Assembly: GCA_050485365.1 (NCBI GenBank)
Contig: JBJHBH010000001.1
Coordinates: forward strand, 1,101 to 65,100
Length of the DNA stretch: 64,000 bases
Direction of reading: 5' to 3'
From: Desulfuromonadales bacterium
GTDB taxonomy: Bacteria; Desulfobacterota; Desulfuromonadia; Desulfuromonadales; JACZKF01
The position numbers and the translations under genes are program-made. This document shows, piece after piece, positions 10,366 through 57,879 of the stretch; within the stretch, counting starts at the first letter, position 1; the number at the start of each line of letters is the position of its first letter. The notes below the pieces were generated by a model that made no database searches, was not told where the DNA came from, and saw only the letters and a program-made list of their open reading frames with translations.

Positions 10366-10466
10366 AAAATAGGCAAAGGCAGCCGTGGTGTCAAGGGAAA
10401 TATACCCGGAGGGCTGCGGGTGCTCTAGATGAAGCGCCGCCTCTCACCTTCGGTTGGGCTCTATGT

Positions 10467-10498
10467 AAAAAAACCCGGGTGGATTGGATCCACCCGGG
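10467..10498 (-). terminator. Rho-independent terminator of the TonB-dependent receptor gene
   Basis: CCCGGGTGGAT-tgg-ATCCACCCGGG 11-bp stem followed by T7 on the minus strand, ~40 nt after the stop. Confidence 0.85.
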
Positions 10499-10540
10499 AA
10501 GCTGAAGATCAGCCTGATGTCAGGAGGCGGTTTGGAAGGA

Positions 10541-20948: not shown

Positions 20949-21000
20949 AAGGAAATGCTCGGGGCGAGAGGATTTGAACCTCCGGCCCCCTGCTCCCGAA
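20949..21000. repeat. att-like direct repeat, copy 1 (52 bp)
   Basis: 51/52 identical to 22442-22493. Confidence 0.92.
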
Positions 21001-21025
21001 GCAGGTACGCTACCAGGCTGCGCTA
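20956..21025 (-). pseudogene. Truncated tRNA-Pro(CGG): positions ~8-76 only, with CCA changed to GCA
   Basis: Minus strand TAGCGCAGCCTGGTAGCGTACCTGCTTCGGGAGCAGGGGGCCGGAGGTTCAAATCCTCTCGCCCCGAGCA. D, anticodon and T arms are present; the 5' acceptor strand (expected CGGGGCG) is absent. Confidence 0.85.
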
Positions 21026-22441: not shown

Positions 22442-22493
22442 AAGGAAATGGTCGGGGCGAGAGGATTTGAACCTCCGGCCCCCTGCTCCCGAA
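22442..22493 (-). repeat. att-like direct repeat, copy 2: 3' half of tRNA-Pro(CGG) from the anticodon loop to CCA
   Basis: Minus strand TTCGGGAGCAGGGGGCCGGAGGTTCAAATCCTCTCGCCCCGACCAtttcctt. Confidence 0.92.
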
Positions 22494-22643
22494 CCCGATG
22501 CACTACGGCGGGTGGTAGGGTTCGCGGCACATTGTTCCCTTAATTACCGCAATGTTTCTAGCATATCGCCCCGAAAATGGCAAGAATCTTCCCCGATGCT
22601 TGCCTTGCAAGAAGCCCGTTTCCAAGGACCATAAGGGAACTGA

Positions 22644-25355: not shown

Positions 25356-26522
25356 CTACCACCTATTGTACCCACACCATTTTTCTTCTTCATCGAGAAC
25401 CGATGGCGGGCTTTTCGCCAAGGGGTCTAAGCGGTCAGCCTGTTGGGTGGCCCAATCAAGCCAATCGCTGACATCTTCTCCAGTTCCGATCCTAACGTCA
25501 TCCGAGACATGCCGAACTGCTTCGATGAATGCCCTCAGCTTTTGGCTCTTGTGCCAATCCTCGGCAACGGTTTCAAGATCCTTGAGTTTGGCCTTTTCCT
25601 TTCGTATAGCCTCTTGTTTTTCATGCTTTAACTTTTCGTATTCCTTCCTTTCCCGTTCGCGCCGCTCATTCTCTGCGCGTCGCGACTTCTCTTTGAAAGC
25701 AGAATCGATCAATCCGATGATGACGTCATTCAGGCAATTCTCAATACGTTTTTTCTTGCCATCATTCCAAGACCTTCTGTGGCCATAGGAGTCTTTGTCA
25801 ATTTTCAAAGAAAGCCTGCCTGAGGGCAGATAGTCATATTTTTCGGGACGCATCCAAGAATACTTTTCCATTTGCCTGATTTCCTTCTCAGTTGGCTCAT
25901 GGTCAATACGCGTGGATGTTTCTTCGAGAGTGATCGAAAACTTCTCCCCCATTACGGTGACGTAGGTTTGGCCATTTTCGAGGGCAATCTTGTGCTTTCG
26001 CTTTTCTAAACCTTTGACGAGGACATCCATAATCGGGATGGCCCTGTGGATCAATGGCGGGCTCACGCAGACATTCAGGCTCTTCGGGCCACCTCGGACC
26101 CAGGACCGATCGGATTTGCTTTTCTTGCTGGCGGCCTTGAGTAGCTGCTCCTGGGTCCGCAACGCCAGCCGGTGCAGTTCTTCGGACCCCTCGTTTGCCT
26201 GAAGAAGGTTTGCCGGCAATTTTTCCTGATCGATCAGCATCTCCCGTTCGGATTTTTGAGCACTGTCCAGTTCGAGCGCAGGCATCACCCATTTTTGAAT
26301 CACATGCTCGGTCGGGCCTTTTGTCGGGGGTAAGGTAGGCGGCTTCCCCGGATACTTTCGCAGCCAATAGCCCTTAGGGGGACGAGGGATGTTCAGCTTT
26401 TTGCAGATCTTCGCCAATCCAACATCTGAAATGCCGTATTCCATCGCCAGCTTTGTGGTCGGCTTCGACCAGATTTGCTCAAAAAGCTCCTCTCTGGTGA
26501 GGTGAATCCTTTCCCATCCCAT
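25356..26522 (-). CDS. Conserved island-associated protein with N-terminal HTH and C-terminal coiled coil
   Basis: LTREELFEQIWSKPTTKLAMEYGISDVGLAKICKKLNIPRPPKGYW; AAGGAGG SD before ATG 26522. Confidence 0.75.
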   Translation of the reverse strand: MGWERIHLTREELFEQIWSKPTTKLAMEYGISDVGLAKICKKLNIPRPPKGYWLRKYPGKPPTLPPTKGPTEHVIQKWVMPALELDSAQKSEREMLIDQEKLPANLLQANEGSEELHRLALRTQEQLLKAASKKSKSDRSWVRGGPKSLNVCVSPPLIHRAIPIMDVLVKGLEKRKHKIALENGQTYVTVMGEKFSITLEETSTRIDHEPTEKEIRQMEKYSWMRPEKYDYLPSGRLSLKIDKDSYGHRRSWNDGKKKRIENCLNDVIIGLIDSAFKEKSRRAENERRERERKEYEKLKHEKQEAIRKEKAKLKDLETVAEDWHKSQKLRAFIEAVRHVSDDVRIGTGEDVSDWLDWATQQADRLDPLAKSPPSVLDEEEKWCGYNRW

Positions 26523-26633
26523 GACAAGCCCTCCTTGCTGTGATCGTGTTGGCTGCACAGCCAAGCCTAGCGGGAGGTCGGTGTAATGGCCAGCAAGGAT
26601 GTATTGCATCGATTCCCATTTAGGTCCCCATGA

Positions 26634-26667
26634 GCCGAAGCCCTCCTAGAAGAAGGAGGGCTTCGGC
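26634..26667 (-). terminator. 14-bp perfect hairpin closing the 27587/27050 two-gene unit
   Basis: GCCGAAGCCCTCCT-AGAAGA-AGGAGGGCTTCGGC, 11 nt after the stop at 26679. Confidence 0.65.
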
Positions 26668-26678
26668 ATGCTCACTGG

Positions 26679-27050
26679 TCACGGTTCGAGGAAATAGACC
26701 GTCCCGCTGTATTCCCTGCGGGGGTCTTTTTCCTCCTTCAGGAACCTCCAGTTCTGGGGGTGGTTGGCAATGTGGTTCCAGAGGGTCATGCCGAATAACG
26801 ACCCGAGTAGATTCGGGTCAACGCCATTGACCAGGGAGTCGCCGCTGTCCTGAATCTCGGACAAAATCTTTTTCCCCAGATGCCCGGAATTGACAATCTT
26901 TTCCTCGGCGATTTGGTGCCCGATGAGTTCGGAAAGTCGGCCGTGCAGGGGAGAGCCCTGATAGTCGATAAAGGAATTCCAGTGGTCCTTTTTGCCGATT
27001 GCCGGCTGGGGAGTTTTGGTGTCCTTGTCGGTGTAAGTAAAAAGCGGCAT
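26679..27050 (-). CDS. Hypothetical 123-aa protein
   Basis: AGGAGG SD, clean ORF directly downstream of the 168-aa gene. Confidence 0.75.
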   Translation of the reverse strand: MPLFTYTDKDTKTPQPAIGKKDHWNSFIDYQGSPLHGRLSELIGHQIAEEKIVNSGHLGKKILSEIQDSGDSLVNGVDPNLLGSLFGMTLWNHIANHPQNWRFLKEEKDPRREYSGTVYFLEP

Positions 27051-27080
27051 GGTCTTCCTCCTGGTCTTGAGTTGAATGGA

Positions 27081-27587
27081 TTACTTCGGATAATGGTATT
27101 TCATTTCCTCAAGCCATTCTTTGTAGTCATCGCCGATGTCGGTCAGAAACTGTTCAAAGGTGGAAATAGCGTCAGCTGCTAAGTAGTAGCGCTTCTCTCC
27201 TTTGGGCATCATTTTGATGTCCAAGACAAAATCCTTCAGTCCATAGCGCTTGCAGACTTTTTTGGCGCCTCCAACCCTAGCGGACATGCTTTTTTCCGTC
27301 AGTGTCTCGGAGTTGCCAAGGGGAATGGCCTCAAGTTGCTCCAGAGTCGAGAAGCGTCCTTTGGAGTCGTCCTCGCCATGCAGAAAAATGAGGTGGGCCA
27401 GGTGGAAGGTCTCCCAGCTCACGCTTTCAAAAACCTGGTAAATGGTTTCATCGTCTCTTCCTTCCGTAGCGGATACGATGCCTGCTTCGGCAAGACGAGC
27501 CAGGGTTTCCGACGCCTTCTCTCCCGAGCTCAGCTCCCTGAAAAACGCTGCGACCTGTCCATGTGTGCCCCTGATGATGATTTCCAT
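27081..27587 (-). CDS. Hypothetical 168-aa protein with possible C-terminal winged helix
   Basis: AGGAGG SD before ATG 27587; LTEKSMSARVGGAKKVCKRYG..KRYYL resembles a recognition helix plus wing. Confidence 0.7.
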   Translation of the reverse strand: MEIIIRGTHGQVAAFFRELSSGEKASETLARLAEAGIVSATEGRDDETIYQVFESVSWETFHLAHLIFLHGEDDSKGRFSTLEQLEAIPLGNSETLTEKSMSARVGGAKKVCKRYGLKDFVLDIKMMPKGEKRYYLAADAISTFEQFLTDIGDDYKEWLEEMKYHYPK

Positions 27588-27645
27588 GAGTGCCTCCTGT
27601 CTTGAGTTCATTGTCTTTAGTTCGACTCGCCGTTATGTAATCGAA

Positions 27646-27673
27646 ATATTACACTCCCGCCTGTTGTTGTCAA
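27646..27673 (-). promoter_or_regulatory. Leftward sigma70 promoter
   Basis: TTGACA-N16-TAATAT on the minus strand. Confidence 0.65.
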
Positions 27674-27788: not shown

Positions 27789-27852
27789 TTGATTTTTAAT
27801 TCTTGCCTGCTATTATGGGTCTACTTTTTAGACTCGTTATCAAAACTAGACC
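27789..27852 (+). promoter_or_regulatory. Rightward promoter with adjacent inverted-repeat operator
   Basis: TTGATT-N16-TATTAT, then GGGTCTA-CTTTT-TAGACTC and a further TAGACC half-site at 27847. Confidence 0.55.
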
Positions 27853-27870: not shown

Positions 27871-28737
27871 ATGGAAGCACCACTCGATACCAGGGACGAC
27901 ATTAAGTGGGCGGCACGCAAGCGCCTTGAACTCATCGAGATGGAACTGTTCTGGTCCGGGCGGGTCAACCGGCAGACCTTGATGGGAAAAACCGGGATAT
28001 CCAAGGCGCAGGCCAGTGCCGACTTGGCCCAATACAAAAAGCTGGCAGACCACAACCTCGCCTACAACCTGACCGAAAAGACCTATCAGGTCACCCCCGT
28101 TTTCTCCCCCCTGTTCATCAACACCTCACCGCAGGTCTTTCTGGCTCAGCTTGCATTCGCCGGTGAGAATGCCGAACAGCTTCAGCTGCCCGCCCGTGAC
28201 ATCCAGCCGGCCCTTTTGCGGATTGTCGCCCAGGCGGTTCAGGCAGCCACCTGCGTGGATATCACCTATCAGTCCATGTCCTCCCCCGAGCCGAAAGCTC
28301 GCCTCATTGCGCCACACACCTTCGTCTCCGATGGCTGGCGCTGGCACGTGCGAGCCTACGATTTTCTGAGCGGCTCCTTTCGGGACTTCCTACTGGCCAG
28401 AGTTCTGCTGGCCGGGGAGTGTGCTGCACCGGGGAGGCCCAGGGAACAGCTCTGGTCGAAGGAGAACGATACCGAGTGGCAGACGAGGGTGCCATTGCGG
28501 ATCGTTCCTCACCCGGGGTTGAGCCCTCAACAGAAGGCGGTGGTGGCGAGCGACTTCGGCATGGTCGATGGCGAGGTGCTGTTTCCGGTCCGCCAGGCGT
28601 GCCTCTTTTACGTTTTGCGACAGCTCAGGCTCCTGGATGAATCGAAGAACCCGGCGGAGCAGCAGATCGTTCTGGCCAACAAGGCGGAAGTGTTGCCTCT
28701 GTTAAACAGGCCACTTCAAGGAGGGGACCTTGAGTGA
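27871..28737 (+). CDS. WYL-domain transcriptional regulator (CapW/BrxR-like; wHTH-WYL-WCX)
   Basis: RLELIEMELFWSGRVNRQTLM..GISKAQASADLAQY wHTH; ITYQSMS..LIAPH..DGWRWHVRAY..FRDFLLARV WYL core. Confidence 0.92.
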   Translation: MEAPLDTRDDIKWAARKRLELIEMELFWSGRVNRQTLMGKTGISKAQASADLAQYKKLADHNLAYNLTEKTYQVTPVFSPLFINTSPQVFLAQLAFAGENAEQLQLPARDIQPALLRIVAQAVQAATCVDITYQSMSSPEPKARLIAPHTFVSDGWRWHVRAYDFLSGSFRDFLLARVLLAGECAAPGRPREQLWSKENDTEWQTRVPLRIVPHPGLSPQQKAVVASDFGMVDGEVLFPVRQACLFYVLRQLRLLDESKNPAEQQIVLANKAEVLPLLNRPLQGGDLE

Positions 28738-30034
28738 TCCGGACCACCTGAGGGAGGAGAGCAGCCAGGAAGAGGTTCTGTCGGGATTCTTCCGTGAGGA
28801 TGTCATTCCGGAAGACCTTCCGATGCTTTTCCCCCTGCTGCAGGCGAAAGCCTCGGTTGAGGCTTTTTCGGCCCTATTCAGCGGGTCGCCCGCCAGTGTA
28901 CTGGTGCGGCTGATGATCCTGCGGGAAATCGGCCGCCGTGGCGACGATCCGCATTGGTCGCCCCGGGACATCGAGTCGATGTTCTCCTATGTGGATGAGA
29001 CGAAGCTCAAGAGTGCGATGCTGAGGCTGCGCAACAGCGGCATCCTGGTCTGGCTCTCGGATATCTCCCGCTACCAGTTGAGCCCCCTGGGGCGCATGGC
29101 GCTGTCCGCGCTGTCGACCATGATGAAGTTCGGTCAGGAAGAGGGGAGCGAGCTTGGCTACATCACTTCCCAGATCGCGGCCAGCCAGGCGATGGGGGAG
29201 GTCAATCCGGAAACGCTGGAACACCTGCTCTCCCGCCTCTCGGAACTCGATGACGAATTCAACCGGGCGATCGTCTCCGGTTCGGAATCCCGGATCAAAG
29301 CCGCCGAAAAGAAGCTCGACTCGGTCTGGAACTGGGTGGAGAAGGGCACCGAGGTCATGAAATTGGTGACCGACAGCCTTGATCTGGACCGGGGCGCCCA
29401 TCGCCTGGCGCAACAGATCGGCCGCCGGCAGAGCAAGCTGCTCAGCATGGCCTCCCGGTTCCAGAGCGAGTTGAACCTCATCGAGAAGAACAAGGTCCAC
29501 ATCGAACGCGGGCTCTCCAGCAGCGACATCCTGCACTGGTTGCAGGGACAGCCGGTGAAGGCGTTGGCTTCGATTCTGGACGGGGCCATGGTCCATACCC
29601 CCTCGCCCGGGTTCGTGCTCAGTGACATCGCCGTGGATATCGCCGAGGACATGCTGATCCACCGCGATGTCTCCGAATTGGACGAATCGATTCCGCCGTT
29701 GCCGGACCAGGAGGACGCCAAGGCGATCGATCTGGAGCCCATCGACTTCCGCGCCCTTGGCTCCCTGCAGTCGGATTTAACGGTCGTGAAGGAATCCACG
29801 CCGCTTCAGGAACTGGTGCCCAAGAAGGATTTTGGAACGACCTCCTACCGGCTCTCCCTGATTGCCCTGATTGGCCGGGCCGGCGATGTGGCCGAGGGCA
29901 ACCCGGTAAAGGGGTTGGTGGATCTGCCGATCGACATGGAAATTGCGGAATCGGGAGAAATCGTCCGGATCGGACGGTGTGGCGTGAAGGAAATGACCGC
30001 AGGGTATTTGCATCGTAAAGGAGAGGGGCAGTGA
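28730..30034 (+). CDS. Kleisin-like subunit of a Wadjet/Mks-type SMC system (JetA/MksF-like)
   Basis: N-terminal wHTH (SAMLRLRNSGIL..YQLSPLGR), helical bundle; first of four genes with KITE-like, SMC and Toprim genes. TTG start with AGGAGG SD. Confidence 0.7.
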   Translation: MSDPDHLREESSQEEVLSGFFREDVIPEDLPMLFPLLQAKASVEAFSALFSGSPASVLVRLMILREIGRRGDDPHWSPRDIESMFSYVDETKLKSAMLRLRNSGILVWLSDISRYQLSPLGRMALSALSTMMKFGQEEGSELGYITSQIAASQAMGEVNPETLEHLLSRLSELDDEFNRAIVSGSESRIKAAEKKLDSVWNWVEKGTEVMKLVTDSLDLDRGAHRLAQQIGRRQSKLLSMASRFQSELNLIEKNKVHIERGLSSSDILHWLQGQPVKALASILDGAMVHTPSPGFVLSDIAVDIAEDMLIHRDVSELDESIPPLPDQEDAKAIDLEPIDFRALGSLQSDLTVVKESTPLQELVPKKDFGTTSYRLSLIALIGRAGDVAEGNPVKGLVDLPIDMEIAESGEIVRIGRCGVKEMTAGYLHRKGEGQ

Positions 30035-30726
30035 TAGAGTCACCGGCGCAAGTGCTGGCCGCACGGCTGATCGCCATGCAGTGGTTGCCGCGCAAGGATG
30101 AGCAGGTTACGCGCCTGATCACCGACGAAATCTTTCGGGAAGATGTTCTGGCGCGTCTTAAGTCATGCGGGTTGTGTCTCCTTGAGAACCCCTTTGCCGA
30201 ACACGTGGCTGTTGGGCTCGACGAATCGTCGACGCAGGCGGTCATGGGGCGGGATACAAGCTACATCTCGAACACCTTTGGCCTGCGGCAGGATGCTATG
30301 GCCCTGCTGGTGATCCTCTGGGCGCTGCTGATCATTCCCAAACGACAAAAGCAACTCGACGCCAGCACCGAGAGTGAAGAGACGGAGCAGATGGAATTTT
30401 TCCCCTCCCCCAGACTGGTTTCCCGGGAAGAATTTGACCGGCCGGCCGTCAAGCTCAGTGCGCTCATCTCCGATTTTGGTGGGAAGCTGGGCAAGAAGCA
30501 GCGCATCAACATCAACCTGGGACAGCTGAAGCGGCTCGGGTTCGTGTCCCAGCACAAGGAGCTGATCACGGAAGGGCCGCTCCTGGATCTGGCCTTCGAC
30601 TACAAACACATGGCCTCCCGGATCATCGAAGGGGCCTTGGGCGATATCCTGAAAGACCCGGACCTCGCGCCCACGGCCGATGAAGATCAGGAGGATTTTG
30701 AAGAAGTGGAGGGGGAGGATGTTTGA
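30031..30726 (+). CDS. KITE-like subunit (JetB/MksE-like)
   Basis: 231 aa, two wHTH-like halves (LGQLKRLGFV..GPLLDLAFDY), position between kleisin-like and SMC genes, GTGA overlap. Confidence 0.68.
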   Translation: MIESPAQVLAARLIAMQWLPRKDEQVTRLITDEIFREDVLARLKSCGLCLLENPFAEHVAVGLDESSTQAVMGRDTSYISNTFGLRQDAMALLVILWALLIIPKRQKQLDASTESEETEQMEFFPSPRLVSREEFDRPAVKLSALISDFGGKLGKKQRININLGQLKRLGFVSQHKELITEGPLLDLAFDYKHMASRIIEGALGDILKDPDLAPTADEDQEDFEEVEGEDV

Positions 30727-33532
30727 GTTCAGATACTTCGAGGCGGTGCATTGGGATTTCTGGGAGCGGATCGCTCTGCCCTTCGATGGCCAGCTGCTGA
30801 CCATCGTCGGACCGAATGGCTCGGGGAAAACTACCCTCCTCGACGGCCTGAGAACCCTGCTCGGAATCGACTGCTCCTCCGAGCGCGATTACCGGCGGTA
30901 CGTGCGCCGCAGCCAGAAGCCGGTCGCCTGGCTACGGGCGGTGGTCAGCAATGCCAAGACGGCCCGGGGCCTTCACTCTTTCCACCCCTGCTACACCCCC
31001 GAGGTGACCCTGGTCTGTCGCGTGAAACGCAAGGGGGGTGATTGGAGCCGTGAGTATGCCGTCTTGCCGGGCAACGTCCCGATCGAGGAGGCCGAGGCCA
31101 AGGCGGGCAAGGACTGGTATGGACAGAAGGACTATCGAAACCTCCTGGAGCGGGCGGGACTGGGTCGGGCGATTCGCAAGGTGCTGACCTTGGAACAGGG
31201 CGCCACGGACAAGCTCTGCACCATGAAGTCGCGGGAACTTCTGACTCTGGTTTTCGAGGCCCACGGGGATCAGGAGATCCTCGACAAATATCAGGAAGCC
31301 AAAAACGAGCAGATGACCATCCAGCAGGAGATCGAGGGTCTGAAGCAGGACCTGACCAAGCTGGAGTTGGATGTCAAACTCAACCAAAACAAGGTTGAGT
31401 CATACAATGAGTGGAAACGGCGCAAAGAGCAGCTAGAACGGCTGGTCCTGGAAGATATTCCCCGGCTGGAACTCTTGGAGCAAACCGAGCAGGCAAGGGC
31501 CGGGAGAAACCAGCTGAAAAGTCATCGCCGTGAGCTGAGAAAACTTCAGCATGATCTGGCAGAAAGACGACTTCATCGGCAAAGTATTAACCGGCAGTTG
31601 CAGGAAGCTACGAACCAATTGAACTTTTGGGATGCCGAAGAAAAGAAAAGGCGGGATGATCGCAATAAGGCATCAAATGCCGTCGACGAGCTGAAAAAAA
31701 TTCTTGTGGAAAAGGCCCGTTTGGAAGCTGTCCAGAAACAACAGGTCGAAGGATTCGATCCCGACAGAGTAACTGCGGACAAGACTCGTTTCGAGCTGGA
31801 ACATGCCGAAACCGTTAATCAAATAAAAAAGCTTGAGAAGGAGCTTAAAGACGCTCGCGCTCGCCAGACCGCCCTCCAGGCCACCCATACCAAAGAACTG
31901 TCGCCGCCGGCGCAACGCATGCGGGAAGCCCTTTCCGCCAAAGACATTCCGCACCTGTTTTTCTCCGAAGTCGTTGAAATTATCCTGCCCGAGTGGCAGC
32001 CCGTCATCGAGGGATTGATCGGCGGCGATGCCAATACGGTTCTTCTCGACCGGTCACAGGATAAGACCACCGCCTTTTCGGTCGGTGAGGAGCAGAGGTA
32101 CCGGGGTTTGGTCACCACGGACCAGATGGAGCGCCCCACCCCGCGGCCAGGCTCTTTGCTGGAAGCGGTGGAGTTCCATGCCCCGGTCCCCTCCTGGATC
32201 ATTTCTCGCCTGGATCAGACCCAGCGGGTCGAAGATGCCCAGGCCGGAGCCGCGCTTCCCGCCGGGCAGAACTGGGCCTCCCGCAAGGGTTACTACAAGG
32301 ACAACCGCGGTGGTCGCTACATCGCGGCCGATGTGAAAAGAGAGTATCAATTTGGCAAGGCCGCCGTCTTGGCCGAAATCGAGGATCTTGAGGAGACCAT
32401 TCAACGAGGCAAGAAGGAAATCATTAGGCTAGAGGATCTCAAGACGGAACTTAACGGGAAGATCGCTGACTGCACCTTGCTGCTGGAGGGCTGGGATGCC
32501 GATGCCAACCTGAAGGCTCGAATGGCCGAGTTTGTTCAAGCCGCCAATGATTTGCCGGGCAAGAAAGCCGCTTTAGAAGAAACTGAGGCGAGATTGCGCG
32601 AAGCAGAAAAGGCAGAGGGCGAAGCAAAAAAATCCTTCGATGCCTTCAATAAGGCATCAGGTCAAGTCGATACCCAAATCAAGGAAAAAGAAAAGCAGGC
32701 CGATGATGCTGAAAAGAAGATAGCGGAGAAGAGAAAAGATGTTAGCGCCTTGATTTTGCTGTGTCGGCAAACACGAAAGAAATTTGCCCCCCATCTGCGT
32801 ACGCCTGAACTCCTTCAATCTATCCTGGCTGAGTATGATTCCCTGGCCAGTGCCAAGGCTGAGAGCAAATCCCTGCAGTCCGACCTTGATAATCGAGAGT
32901 GGGAAAAGGATCCTCAAGTCCTCATCATCGCCCAGAAACTTCAAAAGGATTACGAGGCCAAAAAGACGGTCATCGACCAGCGGCGGGCACACCACGTGCG
33001 GGCACTGACCCTGACGGAACAGGCGCGGGAGCAATACATCAATGTCCTCTACGCGACCCTGCGCAACTACATCCGAAGCATTCGAACCCTGGGGGAGATG
33101 GCCGGAGTCGAAATTCTTGCTACCCTGCCCAAACTGGAGAACGACGACCTGAGCCTGGCGCAGGCAGGGCTGGATGTCGAGTTCCGCTTCGACCAGAAGG
33201 AGACCGACGAAACCTCCGGTGGCCAGAAGGTCATCAAGAGTCTGGTCCTTCTGGTCGGATTGATGATGGACAAGGACGAGCAGTCGGGCGGTTTTGTGTT
33301 CATCGATGAACCGTTCGCCCACCTGGATGTCCTCAACATCAACCTGGTCAGCAATTTCCTGCGGCGCAGCGGAGCGCAGTATGTTCTGACCACCCCCAAT
33401 ACCCACAACATCAACGTCTTCGATGCCTCCGACCTGACCTTTGTGACCCGGAGTTGGAAAGCTCCTGCCAAATGGGCACCGCCGGTGGCTTGGGCGCGCC
33501 GGCAGGAGACCGGCGATGAGGCCGTCGCATGA
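30719..33532 (+). CDS. SMC-family ATPase, 937 aa (JetC/MksB-like)
   Basis: Walker A GPNGSGKT, Q-loop LEQG, long coiled coils around a central hinge, signature TSGGQK, Walker B FVFIDEPFAHLD. Start at MFEFRY. Confidence 0.9.
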   Translation: MFEFRYFEAVHWDFWERIALPFDGQLLTIVGPNGSGKTTLLDGLRTLLGIDCSSERDYRRYVRRSQKPVAWLRAVVSNAKTARGLHSFHPCYTPEVTLVCRVKRKGGDWSREYAVLPGNVPIEEAEAKAGKDWYGQKDYRNLLERAGLGRAIRKVLTLEQGATDKLCTMKSRELLTLVFEAHGDQEILDKYQEAKNEQMTIQQEIEGLKQDLTKLELDVKLNQNKVESYNEWKRRKEQLERLVLEDIPRLELLEQTEQARAGRNQLKSHRRELRKLQHDLAERRLHRQSINRQLQEATNQLNFWDAEEKKRRDDRNKASNAVDELKKILVEKARLEAVQKQQVEGFDPDRVTADKTRFELEHAETVNQIKKLEKELKDARARQTALQATHTKELSPPAQRMREALSAKDIPHLFFSEVVEIILPEWQPVIEGLIGGDANTVLLDRSQDKTTAFSVGEEQRYRGLVTTDQMERPTPRPGSLLEAVEFHAPVPSWIISRLDQTQRVEDAQAGAALPAGQNWASRKGYYKDNRGGRYIAADVKREYQFGKAAVLAEIEDLEETIQRGKKEIIRLEDLKTELNGKIADCTLLLEGWDADANLKARMAEFVQAANDLPGKKAALEETEARLREAEKAEGEAKKSFDAFNKASGQVDTQIKEKEKQADDAEKKIAEKRKDVSALILLCRQTRKKFAPHLRTPELLQSILAEYDSLASAKAESKSLQSDLDNREWEKDPQVLIIAQKLQKDYEAKKTVIDQRRAHHVRALTLTEQAREQYINVLYATLRNYIRSIRTLGEMAGVEILATLPKLENDDLSLAQAGLDVEFRFDQKETDETSGGQKVIKSLVLLVGLMMDKDEQSGGFVFIDEPFAHLDVLNINLVSNFLRRSGAQYVLTTPNTHNINVFDASDLTFVTRSWKAPAKWAPPVAWARRQETGDEAVA

Positions 33533-34743
33533 GCGAGCACTGGTCACCTCCTGATGCGCAGGGGATCATCACCCTGACCCTCGATGTCGGCGCCAAACGA
33601 ACGATGCGCGGGAAACGGCGCCGGCGGTCGGTTCTGGAAAATCCCGCCAGCCTTGCGATGCTTGCTGAGGATCAGAAGGAGCTGATTCGCGGCTGGGTGA
33701 AAGGAGCCTCCTACCGCCGAAAGTGGCAAAACCTGCTTGCCACTGGCGGGTATGCCAATGTTCTGCTGGCAGAAGAGTTGCTCAGGATACTGCTGGAAGC
33801 CGGCTGGGTGGAAATTGAGGAGCATCGGACTCCACGCGGCTGGGAACCGGTATGGATCGAGTTCCGGGGGTATGAGGATCTGCGGGAACACCTGGGGCTG
33901 AGCAATCGCGACAAGGAGAGGGCTCAGGCTGACAGCCTGCCAGGGGACTTCTCAACGGATGCACTACGGATTGCTGCCGCCCAATTGGATACGCTTCCGG
34001 CTGCCACCAAGATCAAACGACACGAACTCCTCTCCGGGCTGGAGAACTGGATGCAGGAAGGCCTGCAGGGGACCCGGCGAGATTTTTCCCTGTTCGTTCG
34101 GGGCCGGACGAAGGATATTACGGCCGCCGAATGGGACTGGCTGGAATCCCAGTTGGACCTTGCGTCCTTCGGCGTTAGCGCGCACACGCCCCTGGTCCGC
34201 ATCAAGATCCCGGGGGCTCTAATCTTCCCGGAGGGGCAGGTGGATTTTCGGATGCTGCCGGGAGCGGTGGCGCTCACTCAAGAGCAGATCACCCGAGCGG
34301 CTGCCTTTGCGGGAGAAATTTCCTGCTGGAAGGTGGTCGAGAACCTGACCAGCTTTGAGCGGGTCGTGGCGTCATCAGGAGAAGCCGAAGGGGTCATCTG
34401 GGTGCCGGGCTTTGCCCCTTCCTGGTGGGTTCAGGCGGTTGCCCATCTGGTTGCAATGACAAAGGCTCCAGGGAGAGTCGCCTGTGATCCCGATCCGGCC
34501 GGCCTGCTGATCGCGTCGCAGGTGGGTGATATCTGGGAACGGCAAAGCGCCGCATGGGAGCCTTGGTTTATGAGTCCGGATGATTTTCAGGATAAAGGAA
34601 TTTCGATGTCGCTTACCGAGCATGACCGGGGTTTGCTCAACACTTTCATGCAAAGGCAGTATAATCACGCCAAACTATTGGAATTAGCATGCTGGATGAT
34701 AGGAAAAGGGAATAAATTAGAACAGGAGTCATTTTTGGTTTAG
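33529..34743 (+). CDS. Toprim (TopoVI-A-like) nuclease, JetD/MksG-like
   Basis: VVENLTSFE (catalytic Glu), VIWVPGF, CDPDPAG (DxD), terminal LEQE; ATGA overlap with the SMC gene. Confidence 0.85.
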   Translation: MSEHWSPPDAQGIITLTLDVGAKRTMRGKRRRRSVLENPASLAMLAEDQKELIRGWVKGASYRRKWQNLLATGGYANVLLAEELLRILLEAGWVEIEEHRTPRGWEPVWIEFRGYEDLREHLGLSNRDKERAQADSLPGDFSTDALRIAAAQLDTLPAATKIKRHELLSGLENWMQEGLQGTRRDFSLFVRGRTKDITAAEWDWLESQLDLASFGVSAHTPLVRIKIPGALIFPEGQVDFRMLPGAVALTQEQITRAAAFAGEISCWKVVENLTSFERVVASSGEAEGVIWVPGFAPSWWVQAVAHLVAMTKAPGRVACDPDPAGLLIASQVGDIWERQSAAWEPWFMSPDDFQDKGISMSLTEHDRGLLNTFMQRQYNHAKLLELACWMIGKGNKLEQESFLV

Positions 34744-44904: not shown

Positions 44905-45165
44905 GCAAGGCTGGACGGATGCGGTCCGCGAGTATTTGGGGGTTGCACATTTCGTAGACTTCGAGCATTTGTAGTCTCAATGAATTAAAGTGATTTTCAA
45001 TAAGGCTGTTCTTCCCGGGTGGAGGAACAGCCTTATTTTTTTCTGAGGTGGTGCCGCTCAGGTGAATAATTTTTTATTGACTTTCCTGGGCGGACGGTTA
45101 AATATTTCGGAAATAAAGCAACATCATTTTTCGCCGGCAAACTAGCCGGCAAGATGGAGAGTGCA

Positions 45166-45981
45166 ATGGGCGGGCTGTTTTTGAATGCCTTTAAAGGTTT
45201 AGATCCTTTGGTTCTCAAGGGGCTAGGGGTTCGACTGGGCGACAAGGGGACCCAAACCAGCCGGACCATCATGTTCGAGGAACTGCAGCATCTTTTGGCG
45301 GCGGTCCCGGGAAAAGCTGGGCGTGAAAGCTATGCGAACGCCGTCCTGGAAGACAATTGCCTGGGGAAGAGGACCGCGTCCACCCGGGCTTTGAGTCTTC
45401 AGCGCCTTTGTGAACTCTACGCTCTTGACCCTGGGGTGCCCCTTTTTCGGGTCATGCGCGACCTCTGGATTATCAACGAAACGAGTCGGCCCCTCCTGGC
45501 CCTCCTCCTAGCTCTTGCTCGTGACCCCCTTCTCCGAATCACTGCGACTCCCGTGATCGCGACCCCCTTCGGCAAAGAATTCGCCCGCCAAGCCATGACA
45601 GATGCCTTGGAGTCTGCCGTTGGCGATCGCCTGAACGAATCAACTCTCGACAAGGTGGTGCGCAACGCCTCATCCTCCTGGACCCAGTCCGGGCACCTGC
45701 AAGGCCGGGCGCGAAAGTTTCGGCATCAGGTTCAGCCAACCCCGACGGCATGTGCTTTTGCTCTTTTTATCGGCTATTTCCTTGGCAAACGTGGCCCACT
45801 CCTGTTTGAAACTGCCTGGTGCAAGGTTCTCGACCTTTCCACGGCCGAAATTGCCGAGCTGGCGCACGACGCCAAACGCCTGGGCCTTTTGGAAATTAAG
45901 CAGTCCGGCACGATCGTCGATATTTCCTTCCCGGCGCTACTCACCGATAAAGACAGGGAGCTGATCCATGGGTCGCATTGA
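45166..45981 (+). CDS. BREX BrxA-like DNA-binding protein
   Basis: First gene of the BREX operon; NCLGKRTASTR..L.ELY, SSWTQSGHL; GGAGA SD before ATG 45166. Confidence 0.7.
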   Translation: MGGLFLNAFKGLDPLVLKGLGVRLGDKGTQTSRTIMFEELQHLLAAVPGKAGRESYANAVLEDNCLGKRTASTRALSLQRLCELYALDPGVPLFRVMRDLWIINETSRPLLALLLALARDPLLRITATPVIATPFGKEFARQAMTDALESAVGDRLNESTLDKVVRNASSSWTQSGHLQGRARKFRHQVQPTPTACAFALFIGYFLGKRGPLLFETAWCKVLDLSTAEIAELAHDAKRLGLLEIKQSGTIVDISFPALLTDKDRELIHGSH

Positions 45982-46531
45982 GAAACTGGTCGATCGATAC
46001 CAGCGTTATATTTCTCTGCCCTGGCAAAAGGATCTCGCCGGCGCGCAGCGGGCGGTTTTCGTCGTGTACCACAAGAATGACGAGCGCCGGATGCGTGCTC
46101 GCCTTGAGCTCTTTGCCCTGGCCACTAAGGAGGCCGGCCATGGATGGAAGGTCTGTGACCTGACGACCGCCTTTTCGACCTGGATGTCCGGCATCGATTA
46201 TCGGGATTCCTATTTCGAGGATCCCGAAAGTCTTGAATTGAAGCTGGAGGAAGACTTTTTGGATTTTGTCGCCCAACGGCTTCGAGATGCCTTGAGCGCT
46301 GCTGACGTAGATGACCAGACAGTCGTTGGCGTCTATGGACTCGCTTCCCTATTCGGCTTTGCCCGGGTTTCGGAGGTTATGGCGAAAATTGAAAAGAGCA
46401 TCCGGGGGCGGCTGCTGGTGCTCTTCCCCGGTGAGTACGACAACAACAACTACCGTCTTCTGGATGCTCGCGATGGGTGGAACTATCACGCCATACCGAT
46501 CACGCTGCACCAGGAACTGTTTGAATCCTGA
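45968..46531 (+). CDS. brxB: BREX protein BrxB (DUF1788)
   Basis: VGVYGLASLFGFARVS..GRLLVLFPGEY..YRLLDARDGWNYHA. Confidence 0.88.
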   Translation: MGRIEKLVDRYQRYISLPWQKDLAGAQRAVFVVYHKNDERRMRARLELFALATKEAGHGWKVCDLTTAFSTWMSGIDYRDSYFEDPESLELKLEEDFLDFVAQRLRDALSAADVDDQTVVGVYGLASLFGFARVSEVMAKIEKSIRGRLLVLFPGEYDNNNYRLLDARDGWNYHAIPITLHQELFES

Positions 46532-46546
46532 GGAGGGAGGACCCTT

Positions 46547-49500
46547 ATGAAAAACCGTGACGTTTTCCAGCGCGACCCTGGCAAAATCACCCTGCTGAAC
46601 AATGGGGTGGCGGCAATGACCGATGCACTGACGGATGAAGAACGAAAAACGCTGCGCTTCGAACTTGAACATTTCGTCTGCGAAGGCGAGTACCAACGAG
46701 GCCTTGTGCGCATCCTCAATTCCTATGTCAGCAACATGGGGCAATCGGAGCAGCCAGCGGCCTGGATCAGCGGCTTCTTCGGTAGCGGCAAATCCCATCT
46801 CGCCAAGATGCTGCACTATCTCTGGATCGACTACACCTTTGCCGAAGACGGGGCCACCGCCCGGGGACTGGCCCACCTGCCGGATGACGTCAAGGATCTG
46901 TTGCGGGAGATTTCGACTCTCGGCAAGCGGGAGGGAGGTCTGCATGCCGCCTCGGGGACTCTGGGCGCCGGCGCCGGCGACAGTGTGCGGCTCGCGCTGT
47001 TGGGAATCATCTTCCGCTCGGCAGGTCTGCCCGAAAGTTATCCCCAGGCTCGCTTTTGCATGTGGCTGCGCAAAAACGGCATCTACGATCAGGTCTGCTC
47101 CGATGTCGAGGCCGCCGGCCGCAACTTCCGTAAGGAACTCAACGACCTGTATGTGAGCCCAGTCATTGCCAAGGCCCTTCTAAAGGCCGATCCCTCCTTT
47201 GCCTCCGACGAACCCGGAGCCAAGGCCAGCCTGCGCGCCCAGTTTGCCAAGCCGAAGGACATCAGCAACGAGGAATTCGTTCTGGCCGTGCAGGATGCCC
47301 TGATGGTGGATGGAAAAATGCCCTGCACCGCGGTGATTCTGGACGAGGTCCAGCAGTACATCGGCGACGACACCAGCCGCTCCTACACCGTGCAGGAGGT
47401 TGCCGAGGCCTGCAGCAAGCGCTTCGGCGACGCCCTCCTTTTCGTCGGTACCGGGCAGACGGCTCTCTCCGGCATTCCCGCCCTCCAGCGTCTCCAGGGG
47501 CGCTTTACGGTGAATGTCGAGCTGTCGGACAGCGATGTTGAGACGGTCACCCGCCGGGTCGTGCTGGCCAAGCGTGCAGATCGCGTCGGAGAGGTCGAAA
47601 AAAAGTTGGACGAAAATTCCGGAGAGGTCGATCGGCACCTGAAGGGAACCCGGATCGAACCTCGCAGCGAAGATCATGCGGTTCTGACTGAGGACTACCC
47701 TCTGCTCCCGGTGCGCCGTCGTTTCTGGGAACAGGCCCTGCGGGCGGTTGACAAGGCCGGCACCGCCGGGCAGCTGCGGACCCAGTTGCGGATCGTTTAC
47801 GACGCCATCCGCAAGACAGCGGACGAACCCCTGGGTACCGTGGTGCCGGCGGATTTTCTCTTCGACGAAATCTCGGCCAACCTCCTGCAAACGGGGGTGC
47901 TGCTGCGTGAAATCGACGAAATCATCCGCAAGCAGGACGACGGCACGGCCGATGGGCGGCTCAGGTCTCGTCTGTGTGCCCTGGTTTTCCTGATCCGCAA
48001 GCTCCCCCGCGAGGCCGCAATCGACAGCGGAGTTCGGGCGACTCCGGACATGCTCGCCGATCTCCTGGTCGAGGACCTCTCCTGCGACGGCACCGCTTTG
48101 CGCATCAAGATTCCCCAGTTACTGGAAGAGCTGGTCGGCAAGGGGACCTTGATGAAGGTCGACAGCGGGGAGTACAGCCTGCAGACGAAGGAGAGCAGTG
48201 AATGGGAACAGGAGTTCCGCTCCCGGGAATCCAAGCTGTTGAACGATGTCACCCGGATGACCAGTAAGCGCAGCCAACTGCTGTCGGCCGCGTGTCAGAG
48301 CGCCATCTCTTCGGTGAAGCTGGCGCAAGGAAAATGCAAGGAGCCGCGCAGGCTCCTGCTCCATTTCGGTCAAGATGCCCCCGTGGAAAACAATCAGGAC
48401 GTTCCGGTCTGGATTCGTGACGAATGGGGGACGGACGAAAAGACGATGCTCGACGATGCCCGCGCCGCCGGCACCGACAGCCCCGTTCTGCACATCTTCA
48501 TTCCCAAAATCCAGGCCGAGCCGCTCAGGAAGCGGATTGCCGAGCAGGACGCCGCCAAGGGGACCCTCGACTTCAAGGGGGTGCCCACCACCCGCGAAGG
48601 AATTGAAGCCCGGGAGGCCATGCAGACCCGCCTGACCGAGGCTAGCCAGGGCCTCAATTCTCTGGTCAAGGAGATCATCGACAGCGCCAAGGTTTTCCAG
48701 GGCGGCGGCAACGAGCGCCTTGAGCTGACCCTGCTGGAGAAAACCCAAGAGGCGGCCAGAGCCTCATTGGATCGCATGTTCCCCGAGTTCAAGGATGCCG
48801 ACGACGCCCGCTGGAACAAGGTCATCCAGCAGGCCCGCGGCGGTGCCGAGAACCCCCTCGAAGCGGTCGACCACAAGGACAAGATCGACAAGCACCCGGT
48901 CTGCGCGGCTGTACTCACCTACGTGGGAAGCGGTAAAAAGGGAAAAGAGGTCCGAATCCATCTTGCAGACGCCCCCTACGGCTGGCCCCGGGATGCCGTC
49001 GATGCGGCCCTTATAAGTCTTTTTGCCTCGGGCCACCTGGCTGCATCCATCAATGGGGTGCCGCTCAAGCTCAAGGAAATCGACCAGAACAAAATTCCCG
49101 TCACCGATTTCCGGAGAGAAACGGCAACTATTGGGGCCAAGGATAAGATCAAGCTCCGGGGCCTCTATCAAGCGGCCGGGGTCCCCTGTAAGCCGAATGA
49201 GGAGATCGCCGGCGCCGGGGACTTCCTGAGCCGCCTGCTCTCTCTGGCCCAGGGTGCCGGCGGCGAACCGCCGTTGCCGGAGCGGCCGAAGACCGATCAC
49301 ATTTCGAAGCTGCAGTCCCTGGCCGGCAATGAGCAGCTCTCCGGCATCCTGGAGAAGCATGACGTGCTGAAGGCGAATGCCGAGGCATGGGAGAAGGCCA
49401 AATCCCTGGCCGAGAAGCGGCTGCCTGTCTATCGCAAGGTCCAGGACCTGCTGCGTCATGCCAAGGGGCAGCCCTTCGCCGCCTCTTTGCAGTCCCAACT

Positions 49501-49993
49501 GGATGCCATCGCCCAGGAGCGCCGCCTGCTCGATGCTGCCGACCCCATGCCGGCGCTCACCAAGGCTGTGGTCGACGGGCTGAGAACGGCCCTGACCGAT
49601 GCCGAATTTACTTACACCACGACCTATGATCAGGGAATGCAGGCCCTTGAGGCTGCGGAGAGCTGGCAGAAATTGTCCGAGACCCAATGTGCCGGCATTC
49701 TGGCTTCGGCCGGGCTGAACAAAGTCTCGAAGGGGGCGGTTGGCAATGAGGATGAGGTATTGGCCTCTCTCAATCGTCTGTCTTTGGAGGCGTGGGCCAC
49801 CAAAACCGCCGCCCTGCCCCAGCAGTTTGCCGAGGCCCGTAAGCAGGCGGACAAGCTGCTGGAGCCCAAGACCCAGCACCTCAAGGTCAGCAGCGGGACC
49901 CTGCGCACCCCGGACGATGTGGAGGCCTGGCTCGCCGAAACCAGGCAGCAGATTCTGGTCAAGCTGGGCGATGGCCCGATCGTGATTTCTTAG
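46547..49993 (+). CDS. brxC: BREX P-loop ATPase BrxC
   Basis: WISGFFGSGKSHL, ILDEVQQY, VGTGQ, YPLLP..FWE. Confidence 0.92.
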   Translation: MKNRDVFQRDPGKITLLNNGVAAMTDALTDEERKTLRFELEHFVCEGEYQRGLVRILNSYVSNMGQSEQPAAWISGFFGSGKSHLAKMLHYLWIDYTFAEDGATARGLAHLPDDVKDLLREISTLGKREGGLHAASGTLGAGAGDSVRLALLGIIFRSAGLPESYPQARFCMWLRKNGIYDQVCSDVEAAGRNFRKELNDLYVSPVIAKALLKADPSFASDEPGAKASLRAQFAKPKDISNEEFVLAVQDALMVDGKMPCTAVILDEVQQYIGDDTSRSYTVQEVAEACSKRFGDALLFVGTGQTALSGIPALQRLQGRFTVNVELSDSDVETVTRRVVLAKRADRVGEVEKKLDENSGEVDRHLKGTRIEPRSEDHAVLTEDYPLLPVRRRFWEQALRAVDKAGTAGQLRTQLRIVYDAIRKTADEPLGTVVPADFLFDEISANLLQTGVLLREIDEIIRKQDDGTADGRLRSRLCALVFLIRKLPREAAIDSGVRATPDMLADLLVEDLSCDGTALRIKIPQLLEELVGKGTLMKVDSGEYSLQTKESSEWEQEFRSRESKLLNDVTRMTSKRSQLLSAACQSAISSVKLAQGKCKEPRRLLLHFGQDAPVENNQDVPVWIRDEWGTDEKTMLDDARAAGTDSPVLHIFIPKIQAEPLRKRIAEQDAAKGTLDFKGVPTTREGIEAREAMQTRLTEASQGLNSLVKEIIDSAKVFQGGGNERLELTLLEKTQEAARASLDRMFPEFKDADDARWNKVIQQARGGAENPLEAVDHKDKIDKHPVCAAVLTYVGSGKKGKEVRIHLADAPYGWPRDAVDAALISLFASGHLAASINGVPLKLKEIDQNKIPVTDFRRETATIGAKDKIKLRGLYQAAGVPCKPNEEIAGAGDFLSRLLSLAQGAGGEPPLPERPKTDHISKLQSLAGNEQLSGILEKHDVLKANAEAWEKAKSLAEKRLPVYRKVQDLLRHAKGQPFAASLQSQLDAIAQERRLLDAADPMPALTKAVVDGLRTALTDAEFTYTTTYDQGMQALEAAESWQKLSETQCAGILASAGLNKVSKGAVGNEDEVLASLNRLSLEAWATKTAALPQQFAEARKQADKLLEPKTQHLKVSSGTLRTPDDVEAWLAETRQQILVKLGDGPIVIS

Positions 49994-50005
49994 GGAGGGG
50001 AGAGT

Positions 50006-55803: not shown

Positions 55804-55804
55804 T

Positions 55805-57859: not shown

Positions 57860-57879
57860 ATGCAACAGCGGGGGGAGTT

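What the first reader, a model, noticed from the sequence alone, without database searches (positions are those of the whole stretch)
27871..34743. WYL-headed, divergent Wadjet/MksFEBG-like SMC-Toprim operon
Seen: five genes chained by 4-8 nt overlaps: WYL, kleisin-like, KITE-like, a short 937-aa SMC with TSGGQ signature, and a Toprim nuclease whose N-terminus I cannot match to canonical JetD. Established: Wadjet (JetABCD/MksFEBG/EptABCD) extrudes and cleaves small circular DNA; CapW/BrxR de-repress defence operons. Inference: a possibly unclassified Wadjet subtype that is inducible rather than constitutive. Inducibility could spare the island's own excised circle.
Basis: partly seen in the sequence, partly recalled or inferred. 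Interest (0 to 1): 0.7.

Follow-up and report, generated by a model that had tools for sequence, protein, structure and literature searches.

The report
Divergent Wadjet operon with WYL repressor
This is a real five-gene operon: a very divergent relative of the plasmid-cutting Wadjet (JetABCD) SMC machine that standard annotation models miss, preceded by a CapW/BrxR-type stress-sensing repressor, so it is a new branch of a known system and not a new kind of machine.

Summary
Five co-directional genes (27871-34743, +) are chained by 8/4/8/4-nt overlaps, each with its own Shine-Dalgarno sequence. Gene 1 is a full-length CapW/BrxR homologue (E 1e-44 to PDB 7TB6). Genes 2-5 are remote homologues of JetA, JetB, JetC and JetD, in the canonical order. 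JetD matches by profile-profile comparison at 99.5% (E 3e-22), with Toprim E271 and D320/D322 invariant. JetC matches at 98.9% (E 4e-17), hinge included. The JetB-like model's best PDB matches are JetB chains (E 4e-5). JetA is the weakest: MukF and JetA lead the fold hits at E 1e-3, and hhalign gives P 1e-3.

No PADLOC, Pfam or NCBIfam model for JetA or JetB matched at E ≤ 0.1, and the JetC and JetD models match only weakly and in part. Public records call these proteins "hypothetical" or "DUF2399". The four-gene cassette is conserved in about 187 species, forms its own clade far from JetD1, and lies closest to type I.

The WYL gene is confined to this window's small clade (three loci). BrxR/CapW-Wadjet association is already published, so "inducible Wadjet" is not new. 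The operon sits on a ~45-kb tRNA-Pro island with its own integrase. Verdict: an unclassified Wadjet variant of moderate interest.

The parts
27789..27816 (+). Sigma-70-like promoter (TTGATT-16-TATTAT, extended TG) upstream of the WYL gene
   Evidence: Consensus scan. The -10 TATTAT is invariant in the two orthologous loci L002 and L003 while the flanks have diverged. Function not shown.
27818..27852 (+). Candidate operator: palindrome GGTCTACTTTT / AAAACTAGACC (GTCTA/TAGAC half-sites) between the -10 and the start codon
   Evidence: Inverted repeat I3, 11-nt arms, 91% complementary. Conserved in L002 and L003 against diverged flanks. Binding by the WYL protein is inferred by analogy with BrxR/CapW.
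27871..28737 (+). CapW/BrxR-family wHTH-WYL-WCX transcriptional repressor (288 aa)
   Evidence: phmmer against PDB: S. maltophilia CapW 7tb6 E 1.1e-44 over residues 10-277; 7tb5 and 9c5g CapW; BrxR 7t8k E 1.9e-35. Pfam WYL E 4e-10. 8-nt overlap with the next gene.
28730..30034 (+). JetA/MukF-like kleisin candidate (434 aa): N-terminal winged helix, helical bundle, disordered linker, C-terminal winged helix
   Evidence: No Pfam, PADLOC or NCBIfam hit. AF2 pLDDT 73, pTM 0.38. Foldseek PDB top hits are MukF chains (7nz2_C1 E 1.3e-3, 1t98, 3euh, 9gm7), with JetA 8dk2_A at rank 9 and low TM scores. Enriched hhalign against JetA: P 1.3e-3, 198 collinear columns. Always the first gene of the conserved cassette.
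30031..30726 (+). JetB-like KITE subunit (231 aa): tandem winged-helix domains and an acidic C-terminal tail
   Evidence: No HMM hit. AF2 pLDDT 77, pTM 0.70. Foldseek PDB ranks 1-3 are JetB chains 8dk1_E, 8as8_C and 8dk1_F (E 3.7e-5 to 1.4e-4, prob 1.00, TM 0.50-0.62), followed by MukE and Nse1/Nse3.
30719..33532 (+). JetC-like SMC ATPase (937 aa): Walker A K37, Q160, signature S833-Q836, Walker B D863/E864, central hinge around residues 400-550
   Evidence: Pfam SMC_N E 1.3e-13. PADLOC JetC1 E 6.7e-18, partial. hhalign of the family against JetC1: 98.9%, E 3.6e-17, 557 columns from the N-head through the hinge. ATPase motifs invariant in 21 family members.
33529..34743 (+). JetD-like Toprim nuclease (404 aa): E271, D320xD322, C-terminal EQE 398-400; family-specific basic N-terminal extension (RGKRRRR)
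   Evidence: Pfam DUF2399 E 4.5e-6. PADLOC JetD1 E 8e-10 on residues 210-403 only. Enriched hhalign against JetD1: full length 99.5%, E 3.2e-22; N halves alone P 2e-5; C halves 1.2e-17; crossed controls P 0.15-0.18. Catalytic residues invariant in the family.

Best explanation
The locus encodes a highly divergent member of the Wadjet (JetABCD / MksFEBG) family of SMC-nuclease DNA-restriction complexes. It comprises a MukF/JetA-like kleisin, a JetB-like KITE subunit, a compact 937-aa JetC-like SMC ATPase and a JetD-like Toprim nuclease. All four are translationally coupled behind a CapW/BrxR-type WYL repressor. Inferred mechanism, by homology: the kleisin-KITE-SMC complex loads on DNA and extrudes loops using ATP. 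On small circular DNA, extrusion runs to completion and the stalled motor presents DNA to the JetD-like dimer, which cleaves it, destroying plasmids and other small circles. In this lineage the WYL protein probably binds the palindrome between the -10 and its own start codon and keeps the whole operon low. Single-stranded DNA or DNA damage would release it, as shown for CapW. Shown here: the gene structure, homology of each subunit, conservation of catalytic motifs, conservation of the four-gene cassette, and conservation of the promoter and palindrome. Inferred: complex formation, loop extrusion, circle-specific cleavage, repression and induction.
For: Gene chain and Shine-Dalgarno sequences. 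JetD homology at 99.5%, E 3e-22, with invariant E271, D320 and D322. JetC homology at 98.9%, E 4e-17, hinge included, with invariant ATPase motifs. KITE fold with JetB chains as the top three PDB matches. MukF and JetA dominate the fold hits for the first gene, and hhalign gives P 1e-3. The A-B-C-D order and subunit sizes match canonical type I loci from the same class. The cassette is conserved in essentially every locus with enough flanking DNA among 80 fetched, out of 187 species matches. The WYL protein matches CapW/BrxR at E 1e-44 over its full length. The -10 and palindrome are conserved in the two orthologous loci. The setting is a defence island (BREX, Dsr1, McrBC-like, SIR2/HAM1). Distribution is patchy: 3 of 61 relatives, none in the same genus or family. 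The published Wadjet and CapW mechanisms are cited from abstracts and text seen.
Against: No functional data exist for this family. The kleisin assignment rests on marginal statistics (Foldseek E 1e-3, TM 0.14-0.30, model pTM 0.38). PADLOC, Pfam and NCBIfam Wadjet models for JetA and JetB do not match, so by current operational definitions it is not a Wadjet type I-III. In many Betaproteobacteria the cassette sits in fixed housekeeping positions, such as between prfB and lysS, and tracks taxonomy. That pattern is unusual for a purely mobile defence module. The SMC is about 200 aa shorter than JetC1, so the size threshold or substrate could differ. Type II and III sequences could not be fetched for a joint tree.
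Confidence: 0.75

Rival explanations
1. The family is mainly a chromosome-handling SMC complex (MksBEF-like condensin or a repair factor) that has kept a nuclease partner. Its presence in a defence island here would be secondary.
For: In Gallionellaceae-type loci the cassette lies between prfB and lysS on the same strand, with a 5-nt gap after prfB (L035). In Nitrosospira and Burkholderiales loci it lies between a proA-like gene and an lpdA-like gene. The JetD tree largely tracks taxonomy inside Betaproteobacteria.
Against: The Toprim catalytic residues are invariant across the family, and every locus keeps the nuclease gene. In the window's order the system is patchy and absent from the same genus and family. 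Here it rides a 45-kb integrative defence island. Some other loci have defence-type neighbours such as DUF4276, HNH and PIN.
Confidence: 0.1
2. It is an SMC-nuclease defence system with a different trigger from Wadjet, for example sensing phage DNA ends or replication intermediates as Lamassu does, and not measuring circular DNA.
For: The best single PADLOC hit of the SMC is an LmuB model (E 2.9e-20, C-terminal half). The SMC arms and heads are shorter than in JetC1. The JetD-like protein has a family-specific basic N-terminal extension. A DNA-damage-sensing regulator heads the operon.
Against: The hinge and N-terminal half align specifically with JetC1. The partners are a KITE, a kleisin-like protein and a JetD homologue, none of which Lamassu has. 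No LmuA- or LmuC-like gene is present.
Confidence: 0.1
3. The WYL gene is only a neighbour. It regulates itself or the divergent two-gene unit at 26634-27673, and the ABCD genes are expressed independently.
For: About 60 family loci lack any WYL gene. A strong divergent promoter lies at 27673-27646 on the minus strand.
Against: The WYL stop overlaps the TTG start of gene 2 by 8 nt, with a Shine-Dalgarno sequence inside the WYL gene. The same WYL-ABCD join is kept in L002 and L003 at 70-74% identity. The two-gene unit is not found in L002 or L003. No promoter-like site was found between the WYL gene and gene 2.
Confidence: 0.05

Closest known systems
Type I Wadjet / JetABCD (E. coli GF4-3, P. 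aeruginosa PA14; PDB 8as8, 8dk1-8dk2), equivalent to MksFEBG of C. glutamicum
   Same: Four genes in the order kleisin, KITE, SMC, Toprim nuclease, with similar subunit sizes. JetC-type hinge and heads. JetD Toprim E/DxD and C-terminal EQE, with the N-terminal domain alignable including the RxF...GD(S/T)K motif. JetB is the best structural match of the KITE subunit.
   Different: No JetA or JetB HMM of any type matches at E ≤ 0.1, and the JetC and JetD HMMs match weakly and in part. JetD here hits Pfam DUF2399 but not PF09983 or PF11795, which canonical JetD1 proteins carry. The SMC is 937 aa against 1140-1200 aa. JetD has an extra ~60-residue basic N-terminal extension. About 8 substitutions per site separate the JetD clades. 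Public annotation gives no Wadjet name.
CapW / BrxR wHTH-WYL-WCX repressors (PDB 7tb5, 7tb6, 7t8k, 7qfz)
   Same: Full-length homology (E 1e-44 to 2.5e-27), similar length, position at the head of a defence operon, and a palindromic candidate operator at the promoter. BrxR homologues are reported next to Wadjet (PMC9122601).
   Different: It is translationally coupled to the first structural gene by an 8-nt overlap and is not divergently transcribed. Operator binding and ssDNA sensing were not tested here.
MukBEF / MksBEF condensins
   Same: SMC-kleisin-KITE architecture. MukF is the best fold match of gene 2 and MukE is among the matches of gene 3.
   Different: A Toprim nuclease gene is always attached, the SMC is much shorter than MukB, and here the system is accessory and island-borne.
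Lamassu (LmuABC)
   Same: An SMC-like ATPase with short arms. An LmuB model gives the best single PADLOC score for the C-terminal half.
   Different: Lamassu has no KITE, no kleisin-like first gene and no JetD. The partners and hinge here are of the Wadjet kind.

Membership tests
Wadjet (JetABCD/MksFEBG) | Four-gene operon in the order jetA-jetB-jetC-jetD | tested here: met
   The order and overlaps are as in canonical type I loci L091-L094 of the same class. The cassette is conserved in related loci.
Wadjet (JetABCD/MksFEBG) | JetC: MukB-like SMC ATPase with Walker A/B, signature motif, coiled-coil arms and hinge | tested here: met
   SMC_N E 1.3e-13. hhalign against JetC1: 98.9%, E 3.6e-17, hinge included. 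Motifs invariant.
Wadjet (JetABCD/MksFEBG) | JetD: Toprim nuclease (E, DxD) with an N-terminal CAP-like domain | tested here: met
   hhalign at 99.5%, E 3.2e-22 full length; N halves P 2e-5. E271, D320 and D322 invariant. The fold of the N-terminal domain was not predicted.
Wadjet (JetABCD/MksFEBG) | JetB: KITE subunit (tandem winged helix) | tested here: met
   The AF2 model's top three PDB matches are JetB chains (E about 4e-5, prob 1.00), followed by MukE and Nse1/3. The sequence profile against JetB is not significant (E 0.078).
Wadjet (JetABCD/MksFEBG) | JetA: MukF-like kleisin bridging the SMC neck and cap | tested here: inconclusive
   Domain layout fits: nWHD, helical bundle, linker, cWHD. 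MukF and JetA dominate the fold hits, but E is 1e-3 or worse and TM is 0.30 or lower. hhalign against JetA gives P 1.3e-3, prob 18%. No HMM hit.
Wadjet types I, II, III as operationally defined (PADLOC / Pfam / NCBIfam models) | All four proteins recognised by the subtype's HMMs | tested here: not met
   JetA- and JetB-like proteins: no family at E ≤ 0.1 in PADLOC, Pfam or NCBIfam. JetC1 62 bits, partial. JetD1 36 bits on the C-terminal half only. JetD2 11 bits. I did not apply PADLOC's own system rules.
Wadjet (JetABCD/MksFEBG) | ATP-dependent restriction of small circular DNA | not testable with these tools
   Needs transformation assays and in vitro cleavage.
CapW/BrxR WYL regulators | wHTH-WYL-WCX architecture, about 290 aa | tested here: met
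   Residues 10-277 align with 8-286 of CapW 7tb6, E 1.1e-44; BrxR 7t8k E 1.9e-35.
CapW/BrxR WYL regulators | Binds a palindromic operator at the promoter of the defence operon and is released by ssDNA or DNA damage | not testable with these tools
   A candidate palindrome at 27818-27852 is conserved in L002 and L003. Binding is not shown.
Lamassu | LmuB SMC with an LmuA effector and LmuC, and no kleisin/KITE pair | tested here: not met
   Only a partial LmuB HMM hit. The partners are KITE, kleisin-like and JetD-like.

The most novel reading that the evidence does not exclude
This clade is a true fourth Wadjet type. Its compact 937-aa SMC and extended JetD N-terminus would give it a different substrate-size rule or nuclease-docking mode from types I-III. 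It would have been used in two ways. In Gallionellaceae and Nitrosomonadaceae it is wired constitutively into housekeeping operons (prfB-lysS). In this lineage it is placed under a DNA-damage-sensing CapW/BrxR switch on a 45-kb excisable tRNA-Pro island. There, keeping the system off except under stress would stop it from cutting the island's own excised circle.
Probability: 0.15. Interest if true: 0.65.

Novelty: new variant of a known kind. Interest (0 to 1): 0.42.

Why it matters
Wadjet is the model for how an SMC motor distinguishes small foreign circles from the chromosome, and all structural and biochemical work so far is on types I and II. This is a coherent, rare clade (about 0.1% of species genomes) that current defence finders cannot see. 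It keeps all four subunits and the catalytic residues, but it has shorter SMC arms and heads and a modified nuclease N-terminus. It therefore offers a natural test of which features set the size threshold and nuclease recruitment, and it would add HMMs for a missed system. The WYL-headed version gives a concrete case for testing whether a Wadjet-type system can be stress-induced. The locus is not a new kind of machine, WYL-Wadjet association is already published, and earlier notes in this scan report many other divergent Wadjet-like operons. The value is incremental.

Tried and rejected
- Profile searches of the three family alignments against PDB sequences gave nothing significant.
- Thin-profile hhalign against five canonical sequences gave nothing for JetA, E 0.078 for JetB, and P 0.09 for the JetD N half. 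Enriched profiles were needed.
- I tried to fetch type II JetD sequences for a joint phylogeny. PDLC00556 found none in 401 genomes of the phylum or in the controls, so the tree has only JetD1 as an outgroup.
- A search of 1.84 billion representatives with the kleisin-like profile found 328 relatives. Ten distant full-length ones had no Pfam family, apart from one sub-threshold JetA hit at E 0.018, so there is no sequence bridge to JetA.
- I checked whether the WYL gene is a family feature. It is not: upstream genes elsewhere are prfB, proA-like, HNH, DUF4276, AraC/GyrI or unrelated.
- I checked whether the divergent two-gene unit (26634-27673) belongs to the system. It is absent from L002 and L003.
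- Literature searches for "type IV Wadjet", "Wadjet-like" and "DUF2399" found no description of this clade.
- Both structure-prediction jobs went to genes 2 and 3, so the JetD N-terminal fold and the SMC were not modelled.
Full report
**Observation**

The region holds five co-directional ORFs:

| Gene | Coordinates | Length | Start codon |
|---|---|---|---|
| 1 (WYL) | 27871-28737 | 288 aa | ATG |
| 2 (JetA-like) | 28730-30034 | 434 aa | TTG |
| 3 (JetB-like) | 30031-30726 | 231 aa | GTG |
| 4 (JetC-like) | 30719-33532 | 937 aa | ATG |
| 5 (JetD-like) | 33529-34743 | 404 aa | ATG |

- Gene 4's ORF opens at 30680. The family alignment begins at the ATG at 30719, which gives 937 aa.
- The junctions read TTGAGTGA, GTGA, ATGTTTGA and ATGA, so the overlaps are 8, 4, 8 and 4 nt.
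- AAGGAGG or GGAGG-type ribosome-binding sites precede genes 2-4.
- The SMC motifs are Walker A at 31, TSGGQ at 832 and FIDEP at 861.
- The Toprim motifs are ENLTSFE at 270, DPDPAG at 320 and EQE at 398.

**Library scans**

- Gene 1 has a WYL domain (E 4e-10).
- Genes 2 and 3 hit nothing in Pfam, PADLOC or NCBIfam at E ≤ 0.1.
- Gene 4 hits SMC_N (1.3e-13). It hits PADLOC JetC1 models (best 6.7e-18, 62 bits) and one LmuB model (2.9e-20) only partially.
- Gene 5 hits DUF2399 (4.5e-6). It hits JetD1 models only over residues 210-403 (8e-10, 36 bits), and JetD2 at 11 bits.

**A conserved family**

- The JetD-like protein has about 186 relatives of about 400 aa in the 5.8-billion-protein set. They are named "hypothetical" or "DUF2399 domain-containing".
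- Canonical JetD1 relatives, by contrast, are named "Wadjet anti-phage system protein JetD" and carry PF09983 and PF11795.
- A scan of one genome per species found the family in 187 species. These are Desulfuromonadia-type "delta" lineages, Nitrosomonadaceae, Gallionellaceae, Zoogloea, Hydrogenophilales, Methylophilaceae, Nevskiaceae and Xanthomonadales.
- In essentially every fetched locus with enough upstream DNA, the same four genes occur in the same order: 434-like, 231-like, SMC, JetD-like.
- The WYL gene occurs only in L002 and L003, the two loci 70-87% identical to the window.

**Homology of each subunit**

I took canonical type I Wadjet operons from genomes of the same class as yardsticks. 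Their sizes are JetA 473-482, JetB 206-227, JetC 1140-1200 and JetD 396-417 aa.

JetD:
- Thin profiles gave 96.5%.
- Enriched profiles gave 99.5%, E 3.2e-22 over 343 columns.
- The N-terminal halves alone gave P 2e-5 over 162 columns, sharing an RxF...GD(S/T)K motif.
- The C-terminal halves gave 1.2e-17, and crossed controls gave P 0.15-0.18.
- The N-terminus is therefore a diverged JetD N-domain plus a family-specific ~60-residue basic extension (W-S-x-P-D...RGKRRRR).

JetC:
- hhalign gave 98.9%, E 3.6e-17 over 557 columns, running from the N-head through the arm into the hinge.
- Walker A, Q-loop, signature, Walker B and D-loop residues are invariant in 21 members.

JetB:
- The sequence profile is not significant.
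- The AF2 model (pLDDT 77, pTM 0.70) is a tandem winged helix.
- Its three best PDB matches are JetB chains (8dk1_E, 8as8_C, 8dk1_F; E 3.7e-5 to 1.4e-4). MukE and Nse1/Nse3 follow.

JetA:
- The model (pLDDT 73, pTM 0.38) has an N-terminal winged helix, a helical bundle, a disordered linker and a C-terminal winged helix.
- MukF chains lead the fold hits (7nz2_C1 E 1.3e-3) and JetA 8dk2_A is at rank 9. TM scores are low.
- Enriched hhalign against JetA gives P 1.3e-3 over 198 collinear columns.
- A search of 1.84 billion representatives found 328 relatives with no Pfam family.
- The kleisin call is probable but not proven.

**Position relative to known types**

- In a maximum-likelihood tree the JetD-like family is monophyletic (100/100).
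- Stems of 3.4 and 4.5 substitutions per site separate it from JetD1.
- The window, L002 and L003 form a tight clade on a long stem of 1.0.
- I could not fetch type II or III sequences, so "closest to type I" rests on HMM scores.
- No paper in the library describes a fourth type or this clade.

**The regulator**

- Gene 1 aligns over its full length with CapW (7tb6, E 1.1e-44) and BrxR (7t8k, 1.9e-35).
- A promoter-like site at 27789-27816 is followed by a palindrome at 27818-27852 (GGTCTACTTTT / AAAACTAGACC).
- The -10 and the palindrome are conserved in L002 and L003, while the flanks have diverged.
- CapW is a repressor released by single-stranded DNA. BrxR/CapW homologues are already reported next to Wadjet (PMC11662680, PMC9122601).
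- A WYL-headed, presumably inducible Wadjet is therefore plausible here but not a new idea.

**Context**

- The operon lies in a low-GC defence island.
- Upstream are Fic and DUF5677.
- Immediately downstream are SIR2/HAM1 and a McrBC-like pair.
- Further on are a Toprim-DUF3987 primase, a type I BREX system and Dsr1.
- A P4-type integrase lies at 61523-62833.
- A complete tRNA-Pro(CGG) lies about 3.4 kb beyond the window end, and its 3' half is repeated at 22442-22506 and 20949-21013.
- This defines an integrative island of about 45 kb.
- The system is absent from the same genus and family and present in 3 of 61 relatives.
- A 45-kb excised circle would fall inside the published Wadjet size range of about 100 kb (abstract of 10.1101/2022.10.04.510915).

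**Elsewhere in the family**

- In Gallionellaceae-type loci the cassette sits between prfB and lysS on the same strand.
- In Nitrosospira and Burkholderiales loci it sits between a proA-like gene and an lpdA-like gene.
- Other loci have HNH, DUF4276, PIN or AraC/GyrI neighbours.
- A 30%-identical relative on Variovorax megaplasmids is truncated by IS1071.
- These fixed housekeeping positions are the main argument for a rival, non-defence role. Invariant nuclease residues argue against it.

**Verdict**

This is a real, intact, divergent Wadjet-type SMC-nuclease operon, outside current subtype models and closest to type I. It is coupled to a CapW/BrxR repressor in this small clade only. It is a new variant of a known kind, and function and regulation are inferred by homology. 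Earlier notes in this scan report many other divergent Wadjet-like operons in other genomes, which lowers the surprise.

Noticed in passing
window 20949-21013, 22442-22506, 61523-62833; L099 4514-4590: A complete tRNA-Pro(CGG) lies about 3.4 kb beyond the window end. Its 3' half is repeated twice at about 21 and 22.5 kb, and a P4-type tyrosine integrase lies at 61.5-62.8 kb. The whole defence cluster is therefore one tRNA-Pro integrative island of about 45 kb, with a small fic islet stacked at its far end.
   Followed up: partly
L035 4346-12704 (also L023, L027, L044, L052, L055, L068, L072, L079, L080): In Gallionellaceae and Sideroxydans genomes the ABCD cassette is inserted between prfB and lysS on the same strand, with a 5-nt gap after prfB. 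In Nitrosospira and Burkholderiales it lies between a proA-like gene and an lpdA-like gene. These fixed housekeeping positions suggest long vertical retention and constitutive expression.
   Followed up: partly
L098 (Variovorax sp. RA8 plasmid 2, NZ_LR594663.1) 6556-11219: A 30%-identical JetD-like gene on a 429-kb plasmid follows an SMC gene truncated by an IS1071 transposase and is directly followed by xseA-xseB (exonuclease VII). An identical arrangement occurs on a second Variovorax plasmid.
   Followed up: no
window 25356-26609 (-): A 417-aa protein with no Pfam or PADLOC hit has a 66%-identical homologue directly adjacent to, and divergent from, the WYL gene in L003. In the window, the two-gene unit at 26634-27673 separates it from the WYL gene. 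It may be an old neighbour of the WYL-Wadjet module.
   Followed up: partly
L024 3243-5080; L071 2534-4392; L006 4448-5221: In some family loci the gene directly upstream of the cassette is a DUF4276 protein preceded by a ~420-aa gene (L024, L071), or an HNH_2 endonuclease abutting the jetA-like start (L006). These look like other defence-type neighbours.
   Followed up: no
window 45154-61437: A complete type I BREX system (BrxA, BrxB, BrxC, PglX, PglZ, BrxL, all with very strong PADLOC matches) is immediately followed by a Dsr1-type SIR2 protein.
   Followed up: partly
window 33529-33710 (JetD-like residues 1-60): A family-specific N-terminal extension has a conserved W-S-x-P-D-x-x-G-I ... 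L-D-V-G-A-x-S-T-L-R-G-K-R-x-R-R motif that is absent from canonical JetD1. It is a candidate docking or DNA-binding peptide.
   Followed up: no
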